Positions 57,201-64,000 of a stretch of 64,000 nt of DNA are shown here, piece after piece. A program made the translations under genes and the position numbers. This DNA comes from Cyanidioschyzon merolae. Its lineage: Eukaryota. How positions within the stretch are numbered: the first letter of the stretch is position 1; every line of letters begins with the position of its first letter. The stretch is taken from the NCBI GenBank assembly GCA_000091205.1, contig AP006487.2; one strand, given 5' to 3'. The notes beneath the pieces were generated by a model. It did not search any database and was not told the origin of the DNA. It was given only the letters and a program-made list of their open reading frames with translations.

Positions 57201-58470
57201 TCTCGTTCACGTCAATGCTCGGCGAATACAATTGCATGCAAAGGCGGCAACAACCATTTTCGGTGGCCTTGCGTGCGCCTCTTCCTGCGGATCCGCACCA
57301 GTACAGCCTTCACGTCGAGGCGAACAAGAGCACACGTATGGAGTATCGCAAAACCCTGAGACGAACGCACGTCTCTTCCCATGATGAAACCTTCACATTG
57401 CCGTGCGCCCCAGCTACGGATGTATACAGTATATGCAAGCATCATGAACACAGCCCGACACGCAAATGCTTGTCGTTTCGCACGTCCACCTTGCAGGGGC
57501 CGCAGAGCCGCGCGCAAACTCAACACCATGCCACGTACACCAAACGTGCTACGCTCTCGTGGCATCTGCTGTCTTCACATAGAACTGTATGACCAAAGCG
57601 GCTGCTGTTATCCTTCCTGTATGGACCTCGCCGTGAAATTCTCAGCACGCAAGCGCTTTGTCGGACTTGAGTGCTTCTCACGAGGCGTGAGGCTGCCAGA
57701 CTCCACGGCGACGCTCTCCGGAGGCGCACAGGCTCCTGCGTGCGTGCGTAGAAGCGGGACGATGCTTCCAGGTATGCACCTTCCACGGACCACGTCTGTC
57801 ATCTATAGTGCATATTCCAACACCCATACCGTATACTTTGGGGTAAAAGCGGTCGCGGAAAAAGTCCAGAGTCTCCAGAAGCGCCGCCCTGCGCGGAGGC
57901 GTCTCACTCGGCTGCGGAAAAACGCGCTGCAACCATGTCAGGTATGCTTGTCTTTCCACTCGATACAAGAGAAACTCACGTGCTTAGGGTAGAACAAAGT
58001 CTCACTGGAAGCATTTAAAGCCTTCAAAGAACGTTGAAGCACCAGTACGAACGTGCGTCTGGGGAAACACAAGTCTATTGTATCGCCTAAGGCGTCAGTC
58101 GCGCTACTGAAATGCGACAGCATTGCCGTTCAGCAGTAGCGGCTCGAGCAGTGACTAGCTCTCCTGTCTGCGACTGCGAAGCGCAGCCAAAGCCTCTTTC
58201 ACCTGGCGCTACCTGCGCGAATAGCTCAAGTTCCACTGCATCCAGTCTAGAACTCAGGTGTGCCTGGGAAAACTGGTTCAGAACGAGCACGGGCTTGGTA
58301 GCACGCTCACAACGGAAGCAAACGAAGCGTGCCGTGTTTCGTGTTGACGAACGGCTGGCGTCGAATTGACGCTACGGACCGGGGTGTGGCTTTATTTGCT
58401 TCCCACACTTCACTGTGCCCTATTTGATAAAGACGTGCTGTGATCGTCTTTGGAGGCGTGCGTTCTTTCG

Positions 58471-60801
58471 ATGAGCTTTTATCCACGTGCAGGAGCTGGC
58501 GGCCCTCGAGCGCTGGGATCGCGCCCCGGCGACCTGAGTGGAGGCCTTGCGGGGAACCGTCCTGCATCGCTGCAGCCAGCTCGCTCGACTTCGGGTCAGA
58601 CAAACTCGAACGAGGCTGTGAGGCTTCTCCAGCTGAGTCCCACTGAACGAGAGGCATACCTTGTCTGGTACCGGGAGGTGCGCGACCCCGCAACCGGTTA
58701 TGTGCCTGGTGACGCAGCAGCTTCGCTTCTGCGCCGCTCTAACCTATACAAAGATCTGCTACGACAAATTTGGGTTTTGGCGGATACCCGTCGACGTGGG
58801 TATCTGGATCAGGACGAGTTTTTTGTTGCCTTGCGACTTGTTGCCATATGCCAACGCGGTGGCGAGCCTTCCCTGGATAGCTTGCGGCGCTTTCGCGGGA
58901 TGCAGCTCATCCCACAAATCGATCCGGCTTCTGCTTCGCGCCCCAGTGCTCAAACAACGCCTGGGGCTGCATCCGCTGCGCAACCGCGCGCTTCTTCTAG
59001 CACCAGCGCTAACCCGGGTGAAACGCTCTCCTGGACGCCAACCTATGAGCAAATCGCAGAATACGATGCGCTCATGCGACAGTATTGTGGAGGCGGTACC
59101 CAGCCGGGTCGGCATCAGTCAGCAGCAAGGCTGGTACGCCTTGCGGACTTGCGCATGACCGGCTCTATCGCGCGGGAGGTCTTTCCGAAACTCTGTCAGC
59201 ATCGCTTAAGCAGTGCCATTCTTCGAGATATCTGGGAGCTCGCCGACCAGGATCGAGATGGGCAGCTGGATTTGCAGGAGTTTCGCTGCGCTGCGCACCT
59301 TTTGACTGTTCTGGGTCGTCAGCCTGCGGACAAGGCGGTTGTGCCGCGCCCACTTCCCCCTGCGCTACGGAAGCAAAGTCTCCGTCTGCGTTTTGGAGAT
59401 GGAGCGAATACAGCGGGCGAGTTTACGGAGGCAGCGCCCTCGGTGCCCAGTGACGCGCTATCGGTTATCTCGTCGCCGAATGCGGAAGTGCCGGCTTCGC
59501 GGAATACGGACCTGGCAGGTGCGTTTTCAGCAGCCAGCAAGTCCGTAGAGGATGCACAGCGTCGCCTGAAAGAACTTCGGGATCATCTGGATCTGCTGGA
59601 AGTGCGAGGTCGTGCACTGGCGGAAAAGAAGCGCGTCACGCTGGCAAACAGCAGTACCAGCACGCTCGAGCGCATCTATGCGGAAGAGCAGGCCTTCGTA
59701 CGAGACGCCCGCGGCGTCGTTGAGGCATGTTTGTTGGATCTGGGCGGAACTCCCGGCCAGTCGCAGAGCGAATCAGTTGCAACGGCGTCAAGACCGGGAC
59801 CCGAATTAGAATCAGAACGCACGATGACCGCCTGGGGTCCGTCATTTTCGTTGAACCTGCAACAGCTGCTTATTAAAGCGAAGAACGAGACAGCCCGGGA
59901 ACGAGCGAAGGTGAAGGTTCTCGAAGAGGAACTCCAGATCGCCCGACGTCAGATTCAAGATATGGTTGCGACCGGGGCTACCGCCCCGGACAAGTTCGGC
60001 ACGGGTCGCACTGAGGGCCATCGTCGAACCCGAAACGTGCACGGGGCGAAGCTCGAGCCCCATGAACCCGGCAAAAGCGCTACACAACGACGAGCGCCAG
60101 GTGGACAGAAGAACGTGAGTGGCTCTCTGCTGGACGACTGGTCCCAAGACGACGCTGATGTGAACGCTGATGACGACGAAGCCCGCAACCAGAGAGCTCG
60201 AAGCAAACGGATCGAGCGCGCAGCGTACCGATTTTCCGCTGAGGAGCAGGTCCCCGAGGACAAGCCAATTGTACGAGATGATCTGGTGGATGTGCCACCC
60301 GAATGGAGTGCCGCTGCGGAGCATGCGCTTTCCGCGAACGAGTCCCGGCAACAGAGCAAGCTGGCCTCCACAGGTACTGCTCGTGGAGCAGCGGATTCCC
60401 GGGCGAGAGGCGACTCGCCGTACCGGCCTCCGCGGTATCAAGGCATGACGCGAGATGCAGCTACCGCTTTTGGCGCTTATATTCAGGACGTTGACGGGGC
60501 CAGAAGCAGACGTTTCGCGGACGACGAACCACGAGATGAGCGTCCTTCGGAGCGGCGGAGAGCGTCTCGCCAAGCGGCACAGTGGCGCCAGACTAGCGTC
60601 GCCGAACCCAGCGAGGATGAGAACTGGCGCAGCGGCAGCGATTACATAGAGGTATCCGAGAGTGTCCACGAGACGACACAGGGTGGCTCACAGCGAGCCG
60701 CCCAGAACCGCTCGGGAGCGATGACCGTCGGCAGCACCGCCGAGGATGACGACGACGAGTGGTCGCGGTCAGCGTCGACTGCTATTTTCAGCTACTGGTA
60801 G
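58471..60801 (+). CDS. EH-domain protein (two Eps15-homology domains plus coiled-coil and an acidic tail; Eps15/Ede1/End3-like endocytic adaptor)
   Basis: EH-like units: REAYLVWYREVRDPATGYVPGDAAASLLRRSNLYKDLLRQIWVLADTRRRGYLDQDEFFVALRLVAI and EYDALMRQY...ARLVRLADLRMTGSIAREVFPKLCQHRLSSAILRDIWELADQDRDGQLDLQEFRCAAHLL. Coiled-coil heptads: KVKVLEEELQIARRQIQDM. The track start at 58450 is a TTG; the first ATG is at 58471. Confidence 0.6.
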   Translation: MSFYPRAGAGGPRALGSRPGDLSGGLAGNRPASLQPARSTSGQTNSNEAVRLLQLSPTEREAYLVWYREVRDPATGYVPGDAAASLLRRSNLYKDLLRQIWVLADTRRRGYLDQDEFFVALRLVAICQRGGEPSLDSLRRFRGMQLIPQIDPASASRPSAQTTPGAASAAQPRASSSTSANPGETLSWTPTYEQIAEYDALMRQYCGGGTQPGRHQSAARLVRLADLRMTGSIAREVFPKLCQHRLSSAILRDIWELADQDRDGQLDLQEFRCAAHLLTVLGRQPADKAVVPRPLPPALRKQSLRLRFGDGANTAGEFTEAAPSVPSDALSVISSPNAEVPASRNTDLAGAFSAASKSVEDAQRRLKELRDHLDLLEVRGRALAEKKRVTLANSSTSTLERIYAEEQAFVRDARGVVEACLLDLGGTPGQSQSESVATASRPGPELESERTMTAWGPSFSLNLQQLLIKAKNETARERAKVKVLEEELQIARRQIQDMVATGATAPDKFGTGRTEGHRRTRNVHGAKLEPHEPGKSATQRRAPGGQKNVSGSLLDDWSQDDADVNADDDEARNQRARSKRIERAAYRFSAEEQVPEDKPIVRDDLVDVPPEWSAAAEHALSANESRQQSKLASTGTARGAADSRARGDSPYRPPRYQGMTRDAATAFGAYIQDVDGARSRRFADDEPRDERPSERRRASRQAAQWRQTSVAEPSEDENWRSGSDYIEVSESVHETTQGGSQRAAQNRSGAMTVGSTAEDDDDEWSRSASTAIFSYW

Positions 60802-61849
60802 AGCAGGCGTGGTGCCTGCTTACTTTTCTAGCGCAGATACGATGCTTCTGGACTTGGTACGTGAGCAAAACGGGAGGAATTTTGGCCGAACAAAGTCAGC
60901 AAGTGTATAAACGCGGTTCAAGCGAGCACGTCACCTGATTCCAGGTTCAACATGTCGCTTGTCTCGAGAATAGAAGCCACGGATTCGAGTGTTGGGAAAC
61001 GCCTCTGGGTACCTGGAAGTACGCGCCGTGTCGGCTATGTTGCCGACGCCAGCGACAAAAACGAAAACAGGTCACCGATGGGGATGTATGCGCTCTCCAA
61101 CAACAGCCGTATAGACACAAAAAGGCTGCGGTCCGTCTCTTGCCTACGTTATTCTAATGTCGATGAAATATCCCCGCTCGATGCATTGCCAGAGGCATTG
61201 GACGATTTTTTGGTCCAGCGTCGAGTGTGAATAGCGTGGGCAGCGCCAGACGCATCGTCCAGGCCGAACAGCGACGAAGGAATCGGTGCAGGTCAGCCCG
61301 GAGGCGTTTTCTTTGTCATCACATTGCGAGACGCTTCATGGCTCATTTGAGGGACTTGAAAGCGCACGAAATTGGCTTGGATATAACGTCAGCGTATCAG
61401 GTTACACATGTGGATACAGGACCTGAGCCGTCGACACCAAAAGAGCATTGTTGAAGCGTGCACTTTCAGGGCGTACACAAGCAACCATGCTGACGGGTCT
61501 GGAGCGATGTATCGAAGCAGATACACTCGGATACGCGACTAGTGCAGATTTATGGGAAGCGAAGTCATTTCTCGTGGAGCGCTATTGTCTGCGACTGGAC
61601 TCTGGTCAGTTTTTACTTTGGAATAAACGCATGATCGATCTGGACACCGTCCGTATGCTGAGCGTATCCGGGGCAGTTGCAGCGTCGCTAGCGACGCTTC
61701 AGCGGTCGCTTGCACATGGACAGGATGACTCGCAGATGTATATGCAGGTGTCCACCGGAGAAACGTACGCATTCAGGTCTCTGTTCCATACGTCAGAAGC
61801 GAGAGTCCCTGGAGCGAGGTCTTGTGACTGGCTATCGACGACAACGGCT

Positions 61850-63190
61850 CATTCACGAAAACGACATTGATTCCAGTCAACGCAACGCTCTGCAGTAGTG
61901 CACCTCTGGATGTGCGACTGCTCGCGTGCGTCCCTCTTCCGTTACACTTCATGTGCATCGATTCAGTCACGAAAACGACATTGATTCCAGTCAACGCAAC
62001 GCTCTGCAGTAGTGCACCTCTGGATGTGCGACTGCTCGCGTGCGTCCCTCTTCCGTTACACTTCTGGTGCATCGATTCAGTCACGAAAACGACATTGATT
62101 CCAGTCAACGCAACGCTATGCAGTAGTGCACCTCTGGATGTACGACTGCTCGCGTGCGTCCCTCTTCCGTTACACTTCATGTGCATCGATTCAGTCACGA
62201 AAACGACATTGATTCCAGTCAACGCAACGCTATGCAGTAGTGCACCTCTGGATGTACGAGTGCTCGCGTGCGTCCCTCTTCCGTTACACTTCAGGTGCAT
62301 CGATTCAGTCACGAAAACGACATTGATTCCAGTCAACGCAACGCTATGCAGTAGTGCACCTCTGGATGTACTGCTGCTCGCGTGCGTCCCTCTTCCGTTA
62401 CACTTCATGTGCATCGATTCAGTCACGAAAACGACATTGATTCCAGTCAACGCAACGCTATGCAGTAGTGCACCTCTGGATGTACGAGTGCTCGCGTGCG
62501 TCCCTCTTCCGTTACACTTCAGGTGCATCGATTCAGTCGCGACAACGACATTGATTCCAGGCAACGCAACGCTATGCAGTAGTGCACCTCTGGATGTACG
62601 AGTGCTCGCGTGCGTCCCTCTTCCGTTACACTTCAGGTGCATCGATTCAGTCGCGACAACGACATTGATTCCAGTCAACGCAACGCTATGCAGTAGTGCA
62701 CCTCTGGATGTACTGCTGCTCGCGTGCGTCCCTCTTCCGTTACACTTCATGTGCATCGATTCAGTCACGAAAACGACATTGATTCCAGTCAACGCAACGC
62801 TATGCAGTAGTGCACCTCTGGATGTGCGACTGCTCGCGTGCGTCCCTCTTCCGTTACACTTCTGGTGCATCGATTCAGTCACGAAAACGACATTGATTCC
62901 AGTCAACGCAACGCTATGCAGTAGTGCACCTCTGGATTTACGAGTGCTCGCGTGCGTCCCTCTTCCGTTACACTTCATGTGCATCGATTCAGTCGCGACA
63001 ACGACATTGATTCCAGTCAACGCAACGCTATGCAGTAGTGCACCTCTGGATGTACGAGTGCTCGCGTGCGTCCCTCTTCCGTTACACTTCAGGTGCATCG
63101 ATTCAGTCGCGACAACGACATTGATTCCAGGCAACGCAACGCTATGCAGTAGTGCACCTCTGGATGTGCGACTGCACGCGTGCGTCTGCG
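61850..63190. repeat. Large tandem array, 114-bp unit x ~11.8 copies (1.34 kb), with point variants at four sites
   Basis: The unit gattccagtcaacgcaacgct(c/a)tgcagtagtgcacctctggatgt(gcgact/acgagt/actgct)gctcgcgtgcgtccctcttccgttacacttc(atg/tgg/agg)tgcatcgattcagtc(acgaa/gcgac)aacgacatt has a period of exactly 114 bp (for example 61869 to 61983). It generates the two repeat-derived ORFs 61773..63212 (-) and 61867..63261 (+). Confidence 0.9.
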
Positions 63191-63270
63191 CGCTCATAAC
63201 ACGCTTCAGCACTTGCAGTAACGTTCGAGTTACGTTTTCTTCTAGTCGCGTGAGACACTAGACTACCGGA

Positions 63271-64000
63271 ATGGAGAAGGTTTGCGACCTGCCTCAGAGT
63301 CCTATATGGAACTGGACTGCGAAGCTCTCACCGACCTCGAGTGGGACGTATACCTCTGTTCCGTTCCCGTCGCATGTTCGGAACGCGTTCAAGCGCTCGG
63401 GAGCCACGTTGACGGAGCGACACGACGCTACAGGCGAGCTGGTTCGTTTACTCGACGACCTCTCCACAGAGTTCCGGTGGATAGCAGCACGCACTCGGGA
63501 AATGTTTGTGAAATCGCTAGAGTCGACACCTTTTACGCCTCGGTTAGTCACACAGCAGTTGTACTTTGCACTGTGTCACGATGGATATGCGTGTCTGTTG
63601 GTTAGTAAAGACCAGAAGGAGCCGATGTCGATACCCCCGGATATGCCGTCCGGGAGTTATGTGATTGTGTTAGTGAGTCTGGATCTTGATGAGGAGCTTG
63701 CGCCCTCAGAAGGCCTCGTGGGCTCCCTCTTCTCCGTCTACAAGCGAAAGACCGCACCTGGCCGAGCCGGTCGGCGCGAGGACTTGCAAGTTTGCTTCGC
63801 TGACCAGGTAGCGGCGGGCTATGCACTTTACGGTAGTTCCACACAGCTCTGCTATTGCATGCGAGGCAATCCCGGAGTGTATCGCTTTGTTTTGCATCCA
63901 GTGGCCAAGCAGTTCTTCATGTGTCGAGGCGGCCCGATCGAGTTCGGTTCCGAGTACGATCGCGGTCGACAGCGCTTGCAGACTGTACTCGCTGTACCGA
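63271..64000 (+). CDS. Fructose-1,6-bisphosphatase/sedoheptulose-bisphosphatase-family (FBPase-fold) protein, 5' part only; the CDS continues past the window end. The metal-binding motifs are substituted
   Basis: The frame (codons starting at 63271 ATG) is open to the window end and is not in the ORF track because no stop lies inside the window. The translation ...ATGELVRLLDDLSTEFRWIAARTRE...YACLLVSKDQKEPMSIPPDMPSGSYVIVLVSLDLDEELAPSEGLVGSLFSVYKRK...DLQVCFADQVAAGYALYGSSTQLCYCMRGNPGVYRFVLHP matches FBPase blocks (GTGEMTQLLNSL..AV, CVLVSEEDKNAIIVEP, YVVCFDPLDGSSN, GTIFGIYRK, GRNLVAAGYALYGSATMLV, VNCFMLDP). SEEDK is replaced by SKDQK and FDPLDGSS by VSLDLDEE. Confidence 0.6.
   Translation, partial: MEKVCDLPQSPIWNWTAKLSPTSSGTYTSVPFPSHVRNAFKRSGATLTERHDATGELVRLLDDLSTEFRWIAARTREMFVKSLESTPFTPRLVTQQLYFALCHDGYACLLVSKDQKEPMSIPPDMPSGSYVIVLVSLDLDEELAPSEGLVGSLFSVYKRKTAPGRAGRREDLQVCFADQVAAGYALYGSSTQLCYCMRGNPGVYRFVLHPVAKQFFMCRGGPIEFGSEYDRGRQRLQTVLAVP

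What the first reader, a model, noticed from the sequence alone, without database searches (positions are those of the whole stretch)
63271..64000. FBPase-fold gene with substituted catalytic metal-binding motifs (candidate pseudo-FBPase or neofunctionalised paralog)
This partial gene keeps the hallmark FBPase core (GSLFSVY.., ADQVAAGYALYGSST, V.RFVLHP) and the N-terminal helix pattern. In my by-eye alignment the two Glu of the VSEEDK motif and the first Asp, Gly and Ser of the FDPLDGSS metal-binding loop are replaced (VSKDQK and VSLDLDEE). The GDQVKKLDVLSND dynamic-loop segment is absent. Those residues coordinate the catalytic Mg/Mn and bind the 1-phosphate in canonical FBPase/SBPase. A retained fold with those losses suggests a non-catalytic (regulatory or scaffolding) or retargeted FBPase-like protein. 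Only the first ~240 aa are in the window.
Basis: partly seen in the sequence, partly recalled or inferred. Interest (0 to 1): 0.6.

Follow-up and report, generated by a model that had tools for sequence, protein, structure and literature searches.

The report
Red-algal FBPase look-alike lacking catalytic centre
This is the first 243 codons of a Cyanidioschyzon merolae gene for a protein that keeps the fructose-1,6-bisphosphatase fold but has lost almost all residues that bind metal and substrate; it belongs to an old, conserved and apparently undescribed family found in red algae, Rhodelphis and glaucophytes, and it probably acts as a regulator or sensor, not an enzyme.

Summary
Window 63271-64000 (+) is an uninterrupted ORF. 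It equals residues 1-243 of the 390-aa C. merolae 10D protein BAM79345.1 / M1V4G6, annotated "similar to fructose 1,6-bisphosphatase".

- **Alignment.** Profile and pairwise alignments reproduce the by-eye alignment (pig numbering): E97->K, E98->D, D118->V, G122->L, S123->D, S124->E. The catalytic loop 52-72 is shortened and lacks N64, D68 and D74. D121 is kept.
- **Beyond the window.** E280 is kept. N212, Y215, R243, Y244, Y264, K274 and R276 are lost.
- **Fold.** It is intact (AF2 pTM 0.83; TM 0.85 to yeast and pig FBPase).
- **Not a decaying gene.** pN is 0.16 against a saturated pS of 0.79 versus a syntenic relative.
- **Family.** It forms a monophyletic group (NJ bootstrap 95-100%) across all red-algal classes sampled, Rhodelphis and glaucophytes. 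No sampled member has E97, E98 or D118. The sister group is a set of degenerate FBPase-like domains fused to inorganic pyrophosphatase.
- **Shift of constraint.** Within the family, conservation has moved from the catalytic pocket to the equivalents of the AMP allosteric site and helices H1-H2.

The best reading is a non-catalytic regulatory or sensor protein. That function is inferred, not shown. I found no description of the family in the literature I could search.

The parts
63271..64000 (+). 5' part (codons 1-243 of 390) of the FBPase-like gene. It matches C. merolae 10D BAM79345.1 / XP_005535631.1 / UniProt M1V4G6, 'similar to fructose 1,6-bisphosphatase'.
   Evidence: ORF translation. 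100% identity and coverage to P0001. Cluster member P0033 is the 10D protein. Other window ORFs are exact matches to CME106C, CME112C and CME114C.
63292..63342 (+). N-terminal, low-confidence segment before the fold (aa 8-24, PQSPIWNWTAKLSPTSS). It contains Ser-Pro motifs that recur in red-algal homologues. It does not look like a plastid transit peptide.
   Evidence: pLDDT below 50 for aa 1-27. SP.SP-type motifs align across members. The Cyanidium homologue starts only 12 aa before the conserved FPSHVR.
63364..63459 (+). Family hallmark: helix H1 plus the start of helix H2 (aa 32-63, FPSHVRNAF...DATGELVRLLDD). TGEL corresponds to the AMP-site residues T27-G28-E29-L30 of pig FBPase.
   Evidence: Nearly invariant in the clade. 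T27, G28, E29 and L30 are retained in 14-15 of 15 diverse members.
63502..63546 (+). Shortened remnant of the catalytic dynamic loop 52-72 and the start of H3 (aa 78-92, MFVKSLESTPFTPRL). N64, D68 and D74 are absent.
   Evidence: Alignments. D74 is 41/41 and N64 is 40/41 in canonical FBPases; both are 0/34 in the clade.
63601..63618 (+). VSKDQK, replacing the metal-binding VSEEDK motif: E97->K113, E98->D114.
   Evidence: Position 97 is K in 29/34 and R in 3/34 clade members, against E in 41/41 canonical sequences.
63673..63696 (+). VSLDLDEE, replacing the FDPLDGSS metal / 1-phosphate loop: D118->V135, D121 kept (D138), G122->L, S123->D140, S124->E.
   Evidence: D118, G122 and S123 are each 41/41 in canonical sequences and 0/34 in the clade. 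D at position 123 occurs in 33/34 clade members.
63730..63750 (+). FSVYKRK (aa 154-160), with the clade-invariant K158 (equivalent to AMP-site R140) and R159. It is followed by the conserved G167-R168..D171.
   Evidence: Region 139-148 is the segment most conserved in the clade relative to canonical FBPases.
63799..63843 (+). ADQVAAGYALYGSST core strand/turn, shared with canonical FBPases. This is a fold determinant.
63895..63918 (+). HPVAKQFF (aa 209-216), equivalent to loop 187-197 ('loop 190') of FBPase. It is strongly conserved in the clade with clade-specific residues (D187->H, E192->Q).
61849..63186 (.). 114-bp x 11.7 tandem repeat array, ending 85 bp upstream of the start codon. It is a neighbouring feature, not shown to be part of the gene.
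   Evidence: It is absent from the syntenic relative L002 and has no Rfam match.

Best explanation
The ORF is the N-terminal 62% of an expressed-type, selectively maintained C. merolae gene. Its product has the complete class-I FBPase fold but a dismantled catalytic centre.

**Shown here.**
- Three of the five metal ligands (E97, E98, D118), the catalytic loop residues (N64, D68, D74), the 1-phosphate ligands (G122, S123, S124, R276) and the 6-phosphate / sugar ligands (N212, Y215, R243, Y244, Y264, K274) are replaced or deleted.
- The same is true of every member of a monophyletic family present in Cyanidiophyceae (Cyanidioschyzon, Cyanidiococcus, Cyanidium, Galdieria), Porphyridium, florideophytes, Rhodelphis and glaucophytes.
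- Within that family, sequence constraint sits on the equivalents of the AMP allosteric pocket (V17, T27, G28, E29, L30, Y113, R140->K, V160, M177), on helices H1-H2, on segments 85-93 and 139-148, and on loop 187-197. It does not sit on the old active site.

**Inferred.**
- The protein cannot hydrolyse fructose-1,6-bisphosphate.
- It is cytosolic or nuclear, because it has no transit-peptide-like leader and it occurs in non-photosynthetic Rhodelphis.
- It works as a pseudoenzyme. It would bind a small ligand at the remodelled nucleotide pocket, or a partner protein through the AMP-domain and loop-190 surfaces. That partner could be the active cytosolic FBPase in a mixed oligomer. In this way it would regulate cytosolic sugar-phosphate or phosphate metabolism without catalysing it.
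- The conserved Lys at position 97 probably neutralises the remaining acidic residues (D121, D123, E280) in place of Mg2+.
For: **Identity and fold.**
- Searches give the gene identity.
- Pfam PF00316 and PF18913 are above threshold but weak: 58 and 40 bits, against 292 and 159 for human FBP1.
- The AF2 model has pLDDT 79 and pTM 0.83. Foldseek gives E 5e-23 and TM 0.85 to yeast, pig and human FBPase.

**Loss of the catalytic set.**
- Searches show it. Thirteen positions are 41/41 conserved in diverse canonical FBPases. Nine of them are 0/34 in the clade.
- The NCBIfam equivalog score is 106 bits against a cut-off of 368. The controls score 398 and 461.

**Maintained by selection.**
- pN is 0.156 against pS 0.786 versus a syntenic Cyanidiococcus-like orthologue.
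- Homologues are recovered from transcriptomes: Rhodelphis and Hildenbrandia (EukProt), Gloeochaete and others (MMETSP).

**Monophyly.** NJ bootstrap is 95% for red algae plus Rhodelphis, 100% when glaucophytes are added, and 98% when the PPase-fusion sister group is added.

**Constraint shift.** In a de-redundant set of 15 members (median identity 0.38, matched to the canonical set):
- AMP-site columns score 0.80 in the clade (exceeded by 0.07% of random column sets) and 0.48 in canonical sequences.
- Active-site columns score 0.57 in the clade (average) and 0.93 in canonical sequences.

**Regulatory-module hint.** The sister group consists of degenerate FBPase-like domains fused C-terminally to a family-I inorganic pyrophosphatase.

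**Canonical enzymes exist.** C. merolae is listed with a cytosolic and a plastid FBPase (PMC7195585). This gene is therefore a third, extra paralogue.
Against: - No biochemical, localisation or expression data for the C. merolae protein were found or could be generated.
- D121 and E280 are retained.
- The C. merolae pocket is still acidic (D114, D138, D140, E141, E142, D319, E323), so some metal binding cannot be excluded.
- Several pocket residues are conserved within the clade: K97, D121, D123, H276 (D in Cyanidiales), an invariant C at position 279, and C at 247. That pattern could reflect a new active site and not only structural packing.
- AMP-site residues T31 and K112, which contact the adenine N6 and the phosphate in pig FBPase (established knowledge), are replaced by V and by S/G/N. 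AMP itself may therefore not be the ligand.
- I could not inspect the AF2 coordinates, so the proposed Lys-acid salt bridges are not verified.
- The NJ tree uses simple distances, and long-branch attraction could inflate support for grouping all degenerate sequences.
Confidence: 0.55

Rival explanations
1. Neofunctionalised enzyme. The FBPase scaffold carries a rebuilt active site (K113, D138, D140, E323, C322, C298, H/D319, R269) that acts on a different substrate or uses different chemistry.
For: These pocket residues are conserved within the red-algal core: K or R at position 97 in 32/34, D121 in 32/34, D123 in 33/34, C279 in 34/34, E280 in 34/34, and C247 in 29/34. Purifying selection is also compatible with an enzyme.
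Against: - As a set, the pocket columns are only averagely conserved in the family, whereas the AMP-domain columns are exceptional.
- E280, D123 and K97 are not kept in the glaucophyte members or in some divergent members.
- All phosphate-binding side chains of the ancestral site are gone, with no obvious replacement by Arg or Lys clusters.
Confidence: 0.25
2. It is still a working fructose-1,6-bisphosphatase, as the database names imply, with compensating residues elsewhere.
For: - The source records and UniRef name the protein and its homologues 'similar to fructose 1,6-bisphosphatase', 'Fructose-bisphosphatase' or 'class 1'.
- D121 and E280 are retained.
- E98->D is conservative in C. merolae.
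Against: - E97, D118, D74, G122, S123, R276, R243, Y264 and N212 are invariant in 41/41 diverse canonical sequences, and all are replaced here.
- From established mutagenesis of pig and rat FBPase (my knowledge, not retrieved here), single changes at E97, E98, D118, D121, D74 or R276 cut kcat by orders of magnitude.
- The equivalog score is 106 bits against a cut-off of 368.
Confidence: 0.04
3. A decaying pseudogene or an annotation artefact of C. merolae.
For: Catalytic residues are lost. There is an unusual 1.3-kb tandem repeat directly upstream.
Against: - The 390-codon frame is intact.
- pN is 0.156 while pS is saturated at 0.786.
- Synteny is conserved: an EH-domain gene upstream and a proteasome alpha gene downstream.
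- Orthologues with the same signature span red algae, Rhodelphis and glaucophytes.
- The fold prediction is confident.
Confidence: 0.02

Closest known systems
Class I fructose-1,6-bisphosphatase (cytosolic / bacterial type; pig, human FBP1 and FBP2, E. coli Fbp; Pfam PF00316 + PF18913)
   Same: - Same two-domain fold (TM 0.85, about 21% identity).
- Same order of helices H1-H3 and of the core strands.
- Shared core motifs: QVAAGY, GS(S/A)T, GG, E280-x-x-P.
- AMP-pocket residues TGEL, Y113, V160 and M177 are retained.
- The family profile scores best against mammalian FBP1/FBP2 and E. coli (about 107-111 bits), lower against chloroplast FBPase (about 92 bits), and far lower against SBPase (28-37 bits).
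   Different: - It lacks E97, E98 and D118, the loop 52-72 catalytic residues, the G122-S123-S124 phosphate cradle, and N212, Y215, R243, Y244, Y264, K274 and R276.
- About 10 residues around 264-274 are deleted.
- Cyanidiales members carry an extra, low-confidence insertion of about 35-40 aa (aa ~222-262).
- It fails the equivalog cut-off.
Pseudoenzyme partners of metabolic enzymes (for example the trypanosome AdoMetDC prozyme, plant PDX1.2 and beta-amylase 9; titles and abstracts seen)
   Same: A catalytically degenerate paralogue is kept under selection alongside active paralogues. That is the logic proposed here: regulation through hetero-oligomerisation or binding.
   Different: No interaction with an active FBPase or any other partner has been shown for this protein. 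The analogy is functional only.
Chloroplast FBPase isoforms and SBPase of photosynthetic eukaryotes (cpFBPase1, cpFBPase2, SBPase; PMC7195585)
   Same: Same superfamily, and multiple paralogues per algal genome.
   Different: - Those are active enzymes with full catalytic sets.
- This protein has no redox 'loop 170' insertion in the alignments, no evident transit peptide, and very weak similarity to SBPase.
- PMC7195585 lists only a cytosolic and a cpFBPase1 for C. merolae and does not mention this third gene.
PPase-FBPase-like fusion proteins (P0254/P0137 from SRA assemblies; P0135 from Rhodelphis limneticus)
   Same: They are the sister clade in the NJ tree (98%). They are likewise degenerate at E97, E98 and D118.
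   Different: - They carry an N-terminal family-I inorganic pyrophosphatase domain.
- They keep R243 and the 264-274 segment.
- They have GSN(E/D)L in place of TGEL.

Membership tests
Class I FBPase fold family (Pfam PF00316 FBPase + PF18913 FBPase_C) | Significant match to both domain models, above gathering thresholds | tested here: met
   PF00316 scores 58.3 bits (cut-off 34.8). PF18913 scores 40.4 bits (cut-off 27). The window fragment alone gives 60.4 bits.
Class I FBPase fold family | Three-dimensional fold superposable on solved FBPases | tested here: met
   AF2 pTM is 0.83. Foldseek against the PDB gives 7ns5, 1fbh and 5fbp at E ~1e-22, with TM (target-normalised) 0.85-0.86.
Catalytically competent FBPase (EC 3.1.3.11) | Five acidic metal ligands: E97, E98, D118, D121, E280 | tested here: not met
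   The residues here are K113, D114, V135, D138 and E323. Only D121 and E280 are retained.
Catalytically competent FBPase (EC 3.1.3.11) | Dynamic loop 52-72 with N64 and D68, plus the catalytic D74 | tested here: not met
   The segment is about 11 residues shorter. N64, D68 and D74 have no equivalents.
Catalytically competent FBPase (EC 3.1.3.11) | 1-phosphate cradle: G122-S123-S124 and R276 | tested here: not met
   The residues here are L139, D140, E141 and D319.
Catalytically competent FBPase (EC 3.1.3.11) | 6-phosphate / sugar ligands: N212, Y215, R243, Y244, Y264, K274 | tested here: not met
   All are replaced or deleted: R243->V294, Y244->H295, and the Y264-K274 segment is deleted. These residues lie outside the window. 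They were read from the full-length protein P0033 and from locus L001.
Catalytically competent FBPase (EC 3.1.3.11) | Score above the curated isofunctional (equivalog) cut-off, NCBIfam NF006778 | tested here: not met
   The score is 105.8 bits against a cut-off of 368. Human FBP1 scores 398.5 and bacterial P0029 scores 461.
Catalytically competent FBPase (EC 3.1.3.11) | Measured Mg2+-dependent hydrolysis of fructose-1,6-bisphosphate | not testable with these tools
   This needs recombinant protein.
Sedoheptulose-1,7-bisphosphatase | Closer sequence relationship to SBPase than to FBPase | tested here: not met
   The family profile scores 28-37 bits against SBPase chains (5iz3, 7b2o) and about 110 bits against FBP1/FBP2.
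AMP-regulated FBPases (allosteric nucleotide site) | AMP-contact residues: V17, T27, G28, E29, L30, T31, K112, Y113, R140, V160, M177 | tested here: inconclusive
   Nine of the eleven are kept or conservatively changed (R140->K) and are highly conserved in the clade. T31->V and K112->S/G/N differ. Ligand binding was not testable.
Pseudoenzyme (operational definition) | Homologue of an enzyme that lacks the catalytic residues yet is maintained by purifying selection | tested here: met
   Residue loss is shown. pN 0.156 against pS 0.786 is.
Pseudoenzyme (operational definition) | Demonstrated absence of catalytic activity | not testable with these tools
   This needs biochemistry.

The most novel reading that the evidence does not exclude
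An ancient archaeplastid pseudo-FBPase family (red algae, Rhodelphis, glaucophytes) has turned the old AMP allosteric domain into its working part. It would act as a stand-alone sensor of a nucleotide or other metabolite, and it would control cytosolic gluconeogenesis, floridean-starch metabolism or pyrophosphate metabolism. Control could come from pairing with the active FBPase. In the sister lineage it comes from covalent fusion to inorganic pyrophosphatase.
Probability: 0.25. Interest if true: 0.7.

Novelty: new variant of a known kind. Interest (0 to 1): 0.5.

Why it matters
- **Annotation.** Databases currently label this protein and its relatives as fructose-bisphosphatases. Metabolic reconstructions of red algae may therefore count an enzyme that is not one.
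- **A new pseudoenzyme example.** If the family is a true pseudoenzyme, it is, as far as I could find, the first described for the FBPase branch of the Li+-sensitive phosphatase superfamily.
- **Age and independence from photosynthesis.** It predates the split of red algae, Rhodelphis and glaucophytes, and it survives in a non-photosynthetic predator. It is therefore not a Calvin-cycle accessory.
- **A concrete hypothesis.** The shift of constraint from the catalytic site to the allosteric site, together with a sister group fused to pyrophosphatase, gives a testable idea of how an allosteric enzyme can be recycled into a pure sensor or regulator.
- **A suitable test system.** C. merolae has routine homologous-recombination genetics (my knowledge, not retrieved here).

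Tried and rejected
- **Prokaryotic or kinetoplastid origin.** I first considered this from the GC content and the long ORFs. It was rejected by exact matches of window ORFs to C. merolae 10D proteins.
Rejected.
- **Pseudogene.** Rejected by pN/pS, synteny and deep conservation.
- **SBPase or chloroplast isoform.** Rejected by profile scores and the lack of a leader.
- **Literature searches.** Seven successful full-text searches and one malformed query found no description of this gene or family. The searches covered Cyanidioschyzon FBPase/SBPase, accession numbers, guessed locus tags CME124C-CME129C, 'FBPase-like' and pseudoenzyme terms, and red-algal FBPase phylogenies. One search was swamped by generic 'pseudoenzyme' papers. 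The library lacks most subscription papers, for example older Protist and Planta papers on C. merolae carbohydrate enzymes, so absence there is not proof.
- **Supplements of PMC7195585.** Not held.
- **Foldseek against afdb50.** Not available.
- **AF2 coordinates.** Not exposed to scripts, so pocket geometry, the proposed Lys113 salt bridges and Cys-Cys distances could not be measured.
- **Extra domains.** Long family members (P0270, P0271, P0113, P0106) carry only low-complexity inserts.
- **Upstream tandem repeat.** It has no Rfam match, and its pattern matched only within the array in this 64-kb window.
- **dS.** It could not be estimated because synonymous sites are saturated. Only pN and pS are reported.
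Full report
**What the sequence is.**
- The window is from chromosome 5 of the red alga Cyanidioschyzon merolae 10D. Five other ATG-started ORFs in it are exact matches to 10D proteins, including CYME_CME106C, CME112C and CME114C, on a 528,682-bp record.
- At 63271 an ATG follows an in-frame TAG at 63259-63261. It opens a frame that runs uninterrupted to the window end, 243 codons.
- The translation is 100% identical to the first 243 residues of a 390-aa protein (P0001). The 90%-identity cluster of P0001 contains BAM79345.1 / XP_005535631.1 / UniProt M1V4G6, [quoted passage not shown] (P0033).
- A hot-spring metagenome contig (L001) differs at 1 of 730 nt. It supplies the rest of the gene: a continuous 390-codon ORF followed by a convergent proteasome alpha-subunit gene.
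- There is no intron.

**Checking the observation.**
- Pfam PF00316 matches the fragment at E 2.4e-16.
- phmmer against all PDB chains aligns LVSKDQK with LVSEEDK and YVIVLVSLDLDEE with YVVCFDPLDGSSN. MAFFT alignments with dozens to 150 relatives keep the same columns.
- In pig-FBPase numbering: E97->K113, E98->D114, D118->V135, D121 kept (D138), G122->L139, S123->D140, S124->E141.
- The segment corresponding to the catalytic loop 52-72 is about 11 residues shorter and has no N64, D68 or D74.
- The by-eye alignment was therefore right. The only refinements are that D121 survives and that E98->D is conservative.

**What lies beyond the window.**
- The C-terminal third keeps E280 (LCEAAP against YECNP).
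- R243 and Y244 are lost (now V and H). The Y264-K274 segment is deleted. R276 is lost (now D). The N212/Y215 motif is lost.
- In a panel of 41 diverse canonical FBPases taken from an exhaustive profile search, N64 (40/41) and D74, E97, E98, D118, D121, G122, S123, N212, R243, Y264, R276 and E280 (41/41 each) are essentially invariant. The C. merolae protein keeps only D121 and E280.
- It passes the Pfam fold models only weakly: 58 and 40 bits, against 292 and 159 for human FBP1.
- It scores 106 bits on the NCBIfam class-1 FBPase equivalog, whose cut-off is 368. Human FBP1 scores 398 and a bacterial FBPase 461.

**The fold is intact.**
- AlphaFold2 with a 25-sequence family alignment gives pLDDT 79 and pTM 0.83.
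- Low confidence is confined to the first 27 residues, aa 51-53, and an insertion around aa 240-260.
- Foldseek against the PDB returns only FBPases at the top: yeast Fbp1 7ns5 at E 5e-23, then pig and human FBP1. Target-normalised TM is about 0.85 at about 21% identity.

**It is not a dying gene.**
- A Cyanidiococcus-like metagenomic orthologue shares 75% identity over the full length and 82% over the window fragment.
- It sits in the same gene order, with an EH-domain gene upstream and a proteasome alpha gene downstream. In the window the EH-domain ORF is at 58450-60801.
- Over 382 aligned codons pN is 0.156, while pS is 0.786 and saturated. This indicates strong purifying selection.

**It defines a family.**
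- *Profile search.* A profile of 25 relatives was searched against 1.84 billion representative proteins and found 47 clusters at E<1e-30. Tabulating 19 catalytic and substrate positions shows a sharp break. The top ~35 clusters lack the catalytic set. From about E 1e-37 onward the hits are canonical FBPases with all positions intact.
- *Named members.* They are Cyanidium caldarium, Cyanidiococcus yangmingshanensis, Galdieria partita, Porphyridium purpureum, Chondrus crispus, Gracilaria domingensis, Gracilariopsis chorda, Agarophyton chilense, Hildenbrandia rubra, the non-photosynthetic red-algal sister Rhodelphis limneticus, and the glaucophyte Gloeochaete wittrockiana. Several come from transcriptomes, so the homologues are expressed.
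- *Tree.* A neighbour-joining tree (80 sequences, 319 columns, 100 bootstraps) supports red algae plus Rhodelphis at 95%. Adding the glaucophytes gives 100%. A sister pair of proteins in which a similarly degenerate FBPase-like domain is fused to an inorganic pyrophosphatase domain joins at 98%. Long-branch attraction is a caveat.
- *Origin.* The family profile is closest to cytosolic or bacterial-type FBPases (about 110 bits). It is further from chloroplast FBPases (about 92 bits) and far from SBPase (28-37 bits).
- *Canonical paralogues.* C. merolae is reported to have a cytosolic and a plastid FBPase as well (PMC7195585). That survey does not list this third gene.

**Where selection acts.** I used a de-redundant set of 15 family members whose divergence matches the canonical panel (median identity 0.38 against 0.39).

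| Column set | Clade conservation | Canonical conservation |
|---|---|---|
| Former active site | 0.57 (average for the protein) | 0.93 |
| 14 AMP allosteric-site equivalents | 0.80 (exceeded by 0.07% of random column sets) | 0.48 |

- Helices H1-H2, segments 85-93 and 139-148, and loop 187-197 are also unusually conserved in the clade.
- T27-G28-E29-L30 forms the near-invariant hallmark D.TGELVRLLDD. Y113, V160, V17 and M177 are kept. R140 is K or R in all but one of the 15 members (E in Galdieria).
- T31 is V, and K112 is S, G or N.
- Inside the old pocket the red-algal core conserves K97, D121, D123, C279 and E280, plus H276 (D in the Cyanidioschyzon/Cyanidium group). The glaucophyte members do not keep E280 or K97.

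**Interpretation.**
- *Shown.* This is an FBPase-fold protein without the FBPase catalytic machinery. It is maintained by selection in a deep lineage that includes a non-photosynthetic member.
- *Inferred.* It does not hydrolyse FBP. This rests on established mutagenesis of E97, E98, D118, D121, D74 and R276 in pig and rat FBPase, recalled from knowledge and not retrieved here.
- *Inferred location.* It is not plastid-targeted. The Cyanidium protein begins 12 residues before the conserved core, and the C. merolae leader carries acidic residues.
- *Inferred mode of action.* Its working surface is the AMP domain together with loop 190. The most likely mechanism is therefore non-catalytic. It would bind a small ligand in the remodelled nucleotide pocket, a partner protein, or both. 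The partner could be the active FBPase in mixed oligomers. The PPase fusions in the sister group fit a regulatory-module role.
- *Main rival.* A rebuilt active site for other chemistry is the main alternative. The conserved K/D/D/E/C set keeps it alive.

**Novelty and limits.**
- The gene itself is already in GenBank and UniProt with an FBPase-like name.
- What seems new is the recognition that it, and a whole archaeplastid family, are catalytically degenerate with constraint relocated to the allosteric domain.
- Seven successful full-text searches found no description. The library omits much of the subscription literature, so prior mention cannot be excluded.
- No experiment, expression datum for C. 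merolae, or coordinate-level structural analysis was possible here.

Noticed in passing
window 61849-63186: A 114-bp unit is repeated 11.7 times in tandem (96% match), ending 85 bp upstream of the FBPase-like start codon. It produces spurious ORFs of 464 and 479 aa on the two strands. It is absent from the syntenic Cyanidiococcus-like contig, has no Rfam match, and its pattern matched only within the array in this window.
   Followed up: partly
P0254 / P0137 (SRA-assembly proteins, 706 and 688 aa) and P0135 (Rhodelphis limneticus, 564 aa partial): These are fusion proteins with an N-terminal family-I inorganic pyrophosphatase domain (PF00719) and a C-terminal FBPase-like domain that also lacks E97, E98 and D118. 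They are sister to the stand-alone degenerate family (98% NJ bootstrap).
   Followed up: partly
P0031 / P0032 (350-aa metagenomic proteins): This is another FBPase-like group with substitutions at key positions (SSAEME for SEEDK; GRTDLLHKANP, that is R276->D and E280->K). It may be an independent degenerate or retargeted bacterial lineage.
   Followed up: no
window 63292-63342 and the N-termini of homologues (alignment): A Ser-Pro motif recurs just upstream of the fold: C. merolae PQSPIWNW...LSPTS, Galdieria SPQSPIA, florideophytes SPASPMG. Florideophyte-like members add a conserved F.LLTPTA..L..KR.K extension. These look like proline-directed phosphorylation sites and an NLS-like linear motif, not a transit peptide.
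   Followed up: no
P0033 aa ~222-262 (beyond the window; L001 about 1140-1260): An insertion of about 35-40 residues with low pLDDT, between the QFFMC strand and the ILFAAREL segment. It is found only in the Cyanidioschyzon/Cyanidiococcus/Cyanidium members, not in Galdieria or other red algae.
   Followed up: partly
window 58450-60801 (+) and L002 / L003: The upstream neighbour is an EH-domain protein gene. The order EH-domain gene, FBPase-like gene, proteasome alpha gene is conserved between C. merolae and a Cyanidiococcus-like metagenomic genome.
   Followed up: partly
Database records of homologues: UniRef and NCBI name the Chondrus, Cyanidium, Galdieria, Porphyridium, Gracilaria and Gracilariopsis members 'Fructose-bisphosphatase' or 'Fructose-1,6-bisphosphatase class 1'. 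These are probably over-annotations, given the missing catalytic residues.
   Followed up: yes
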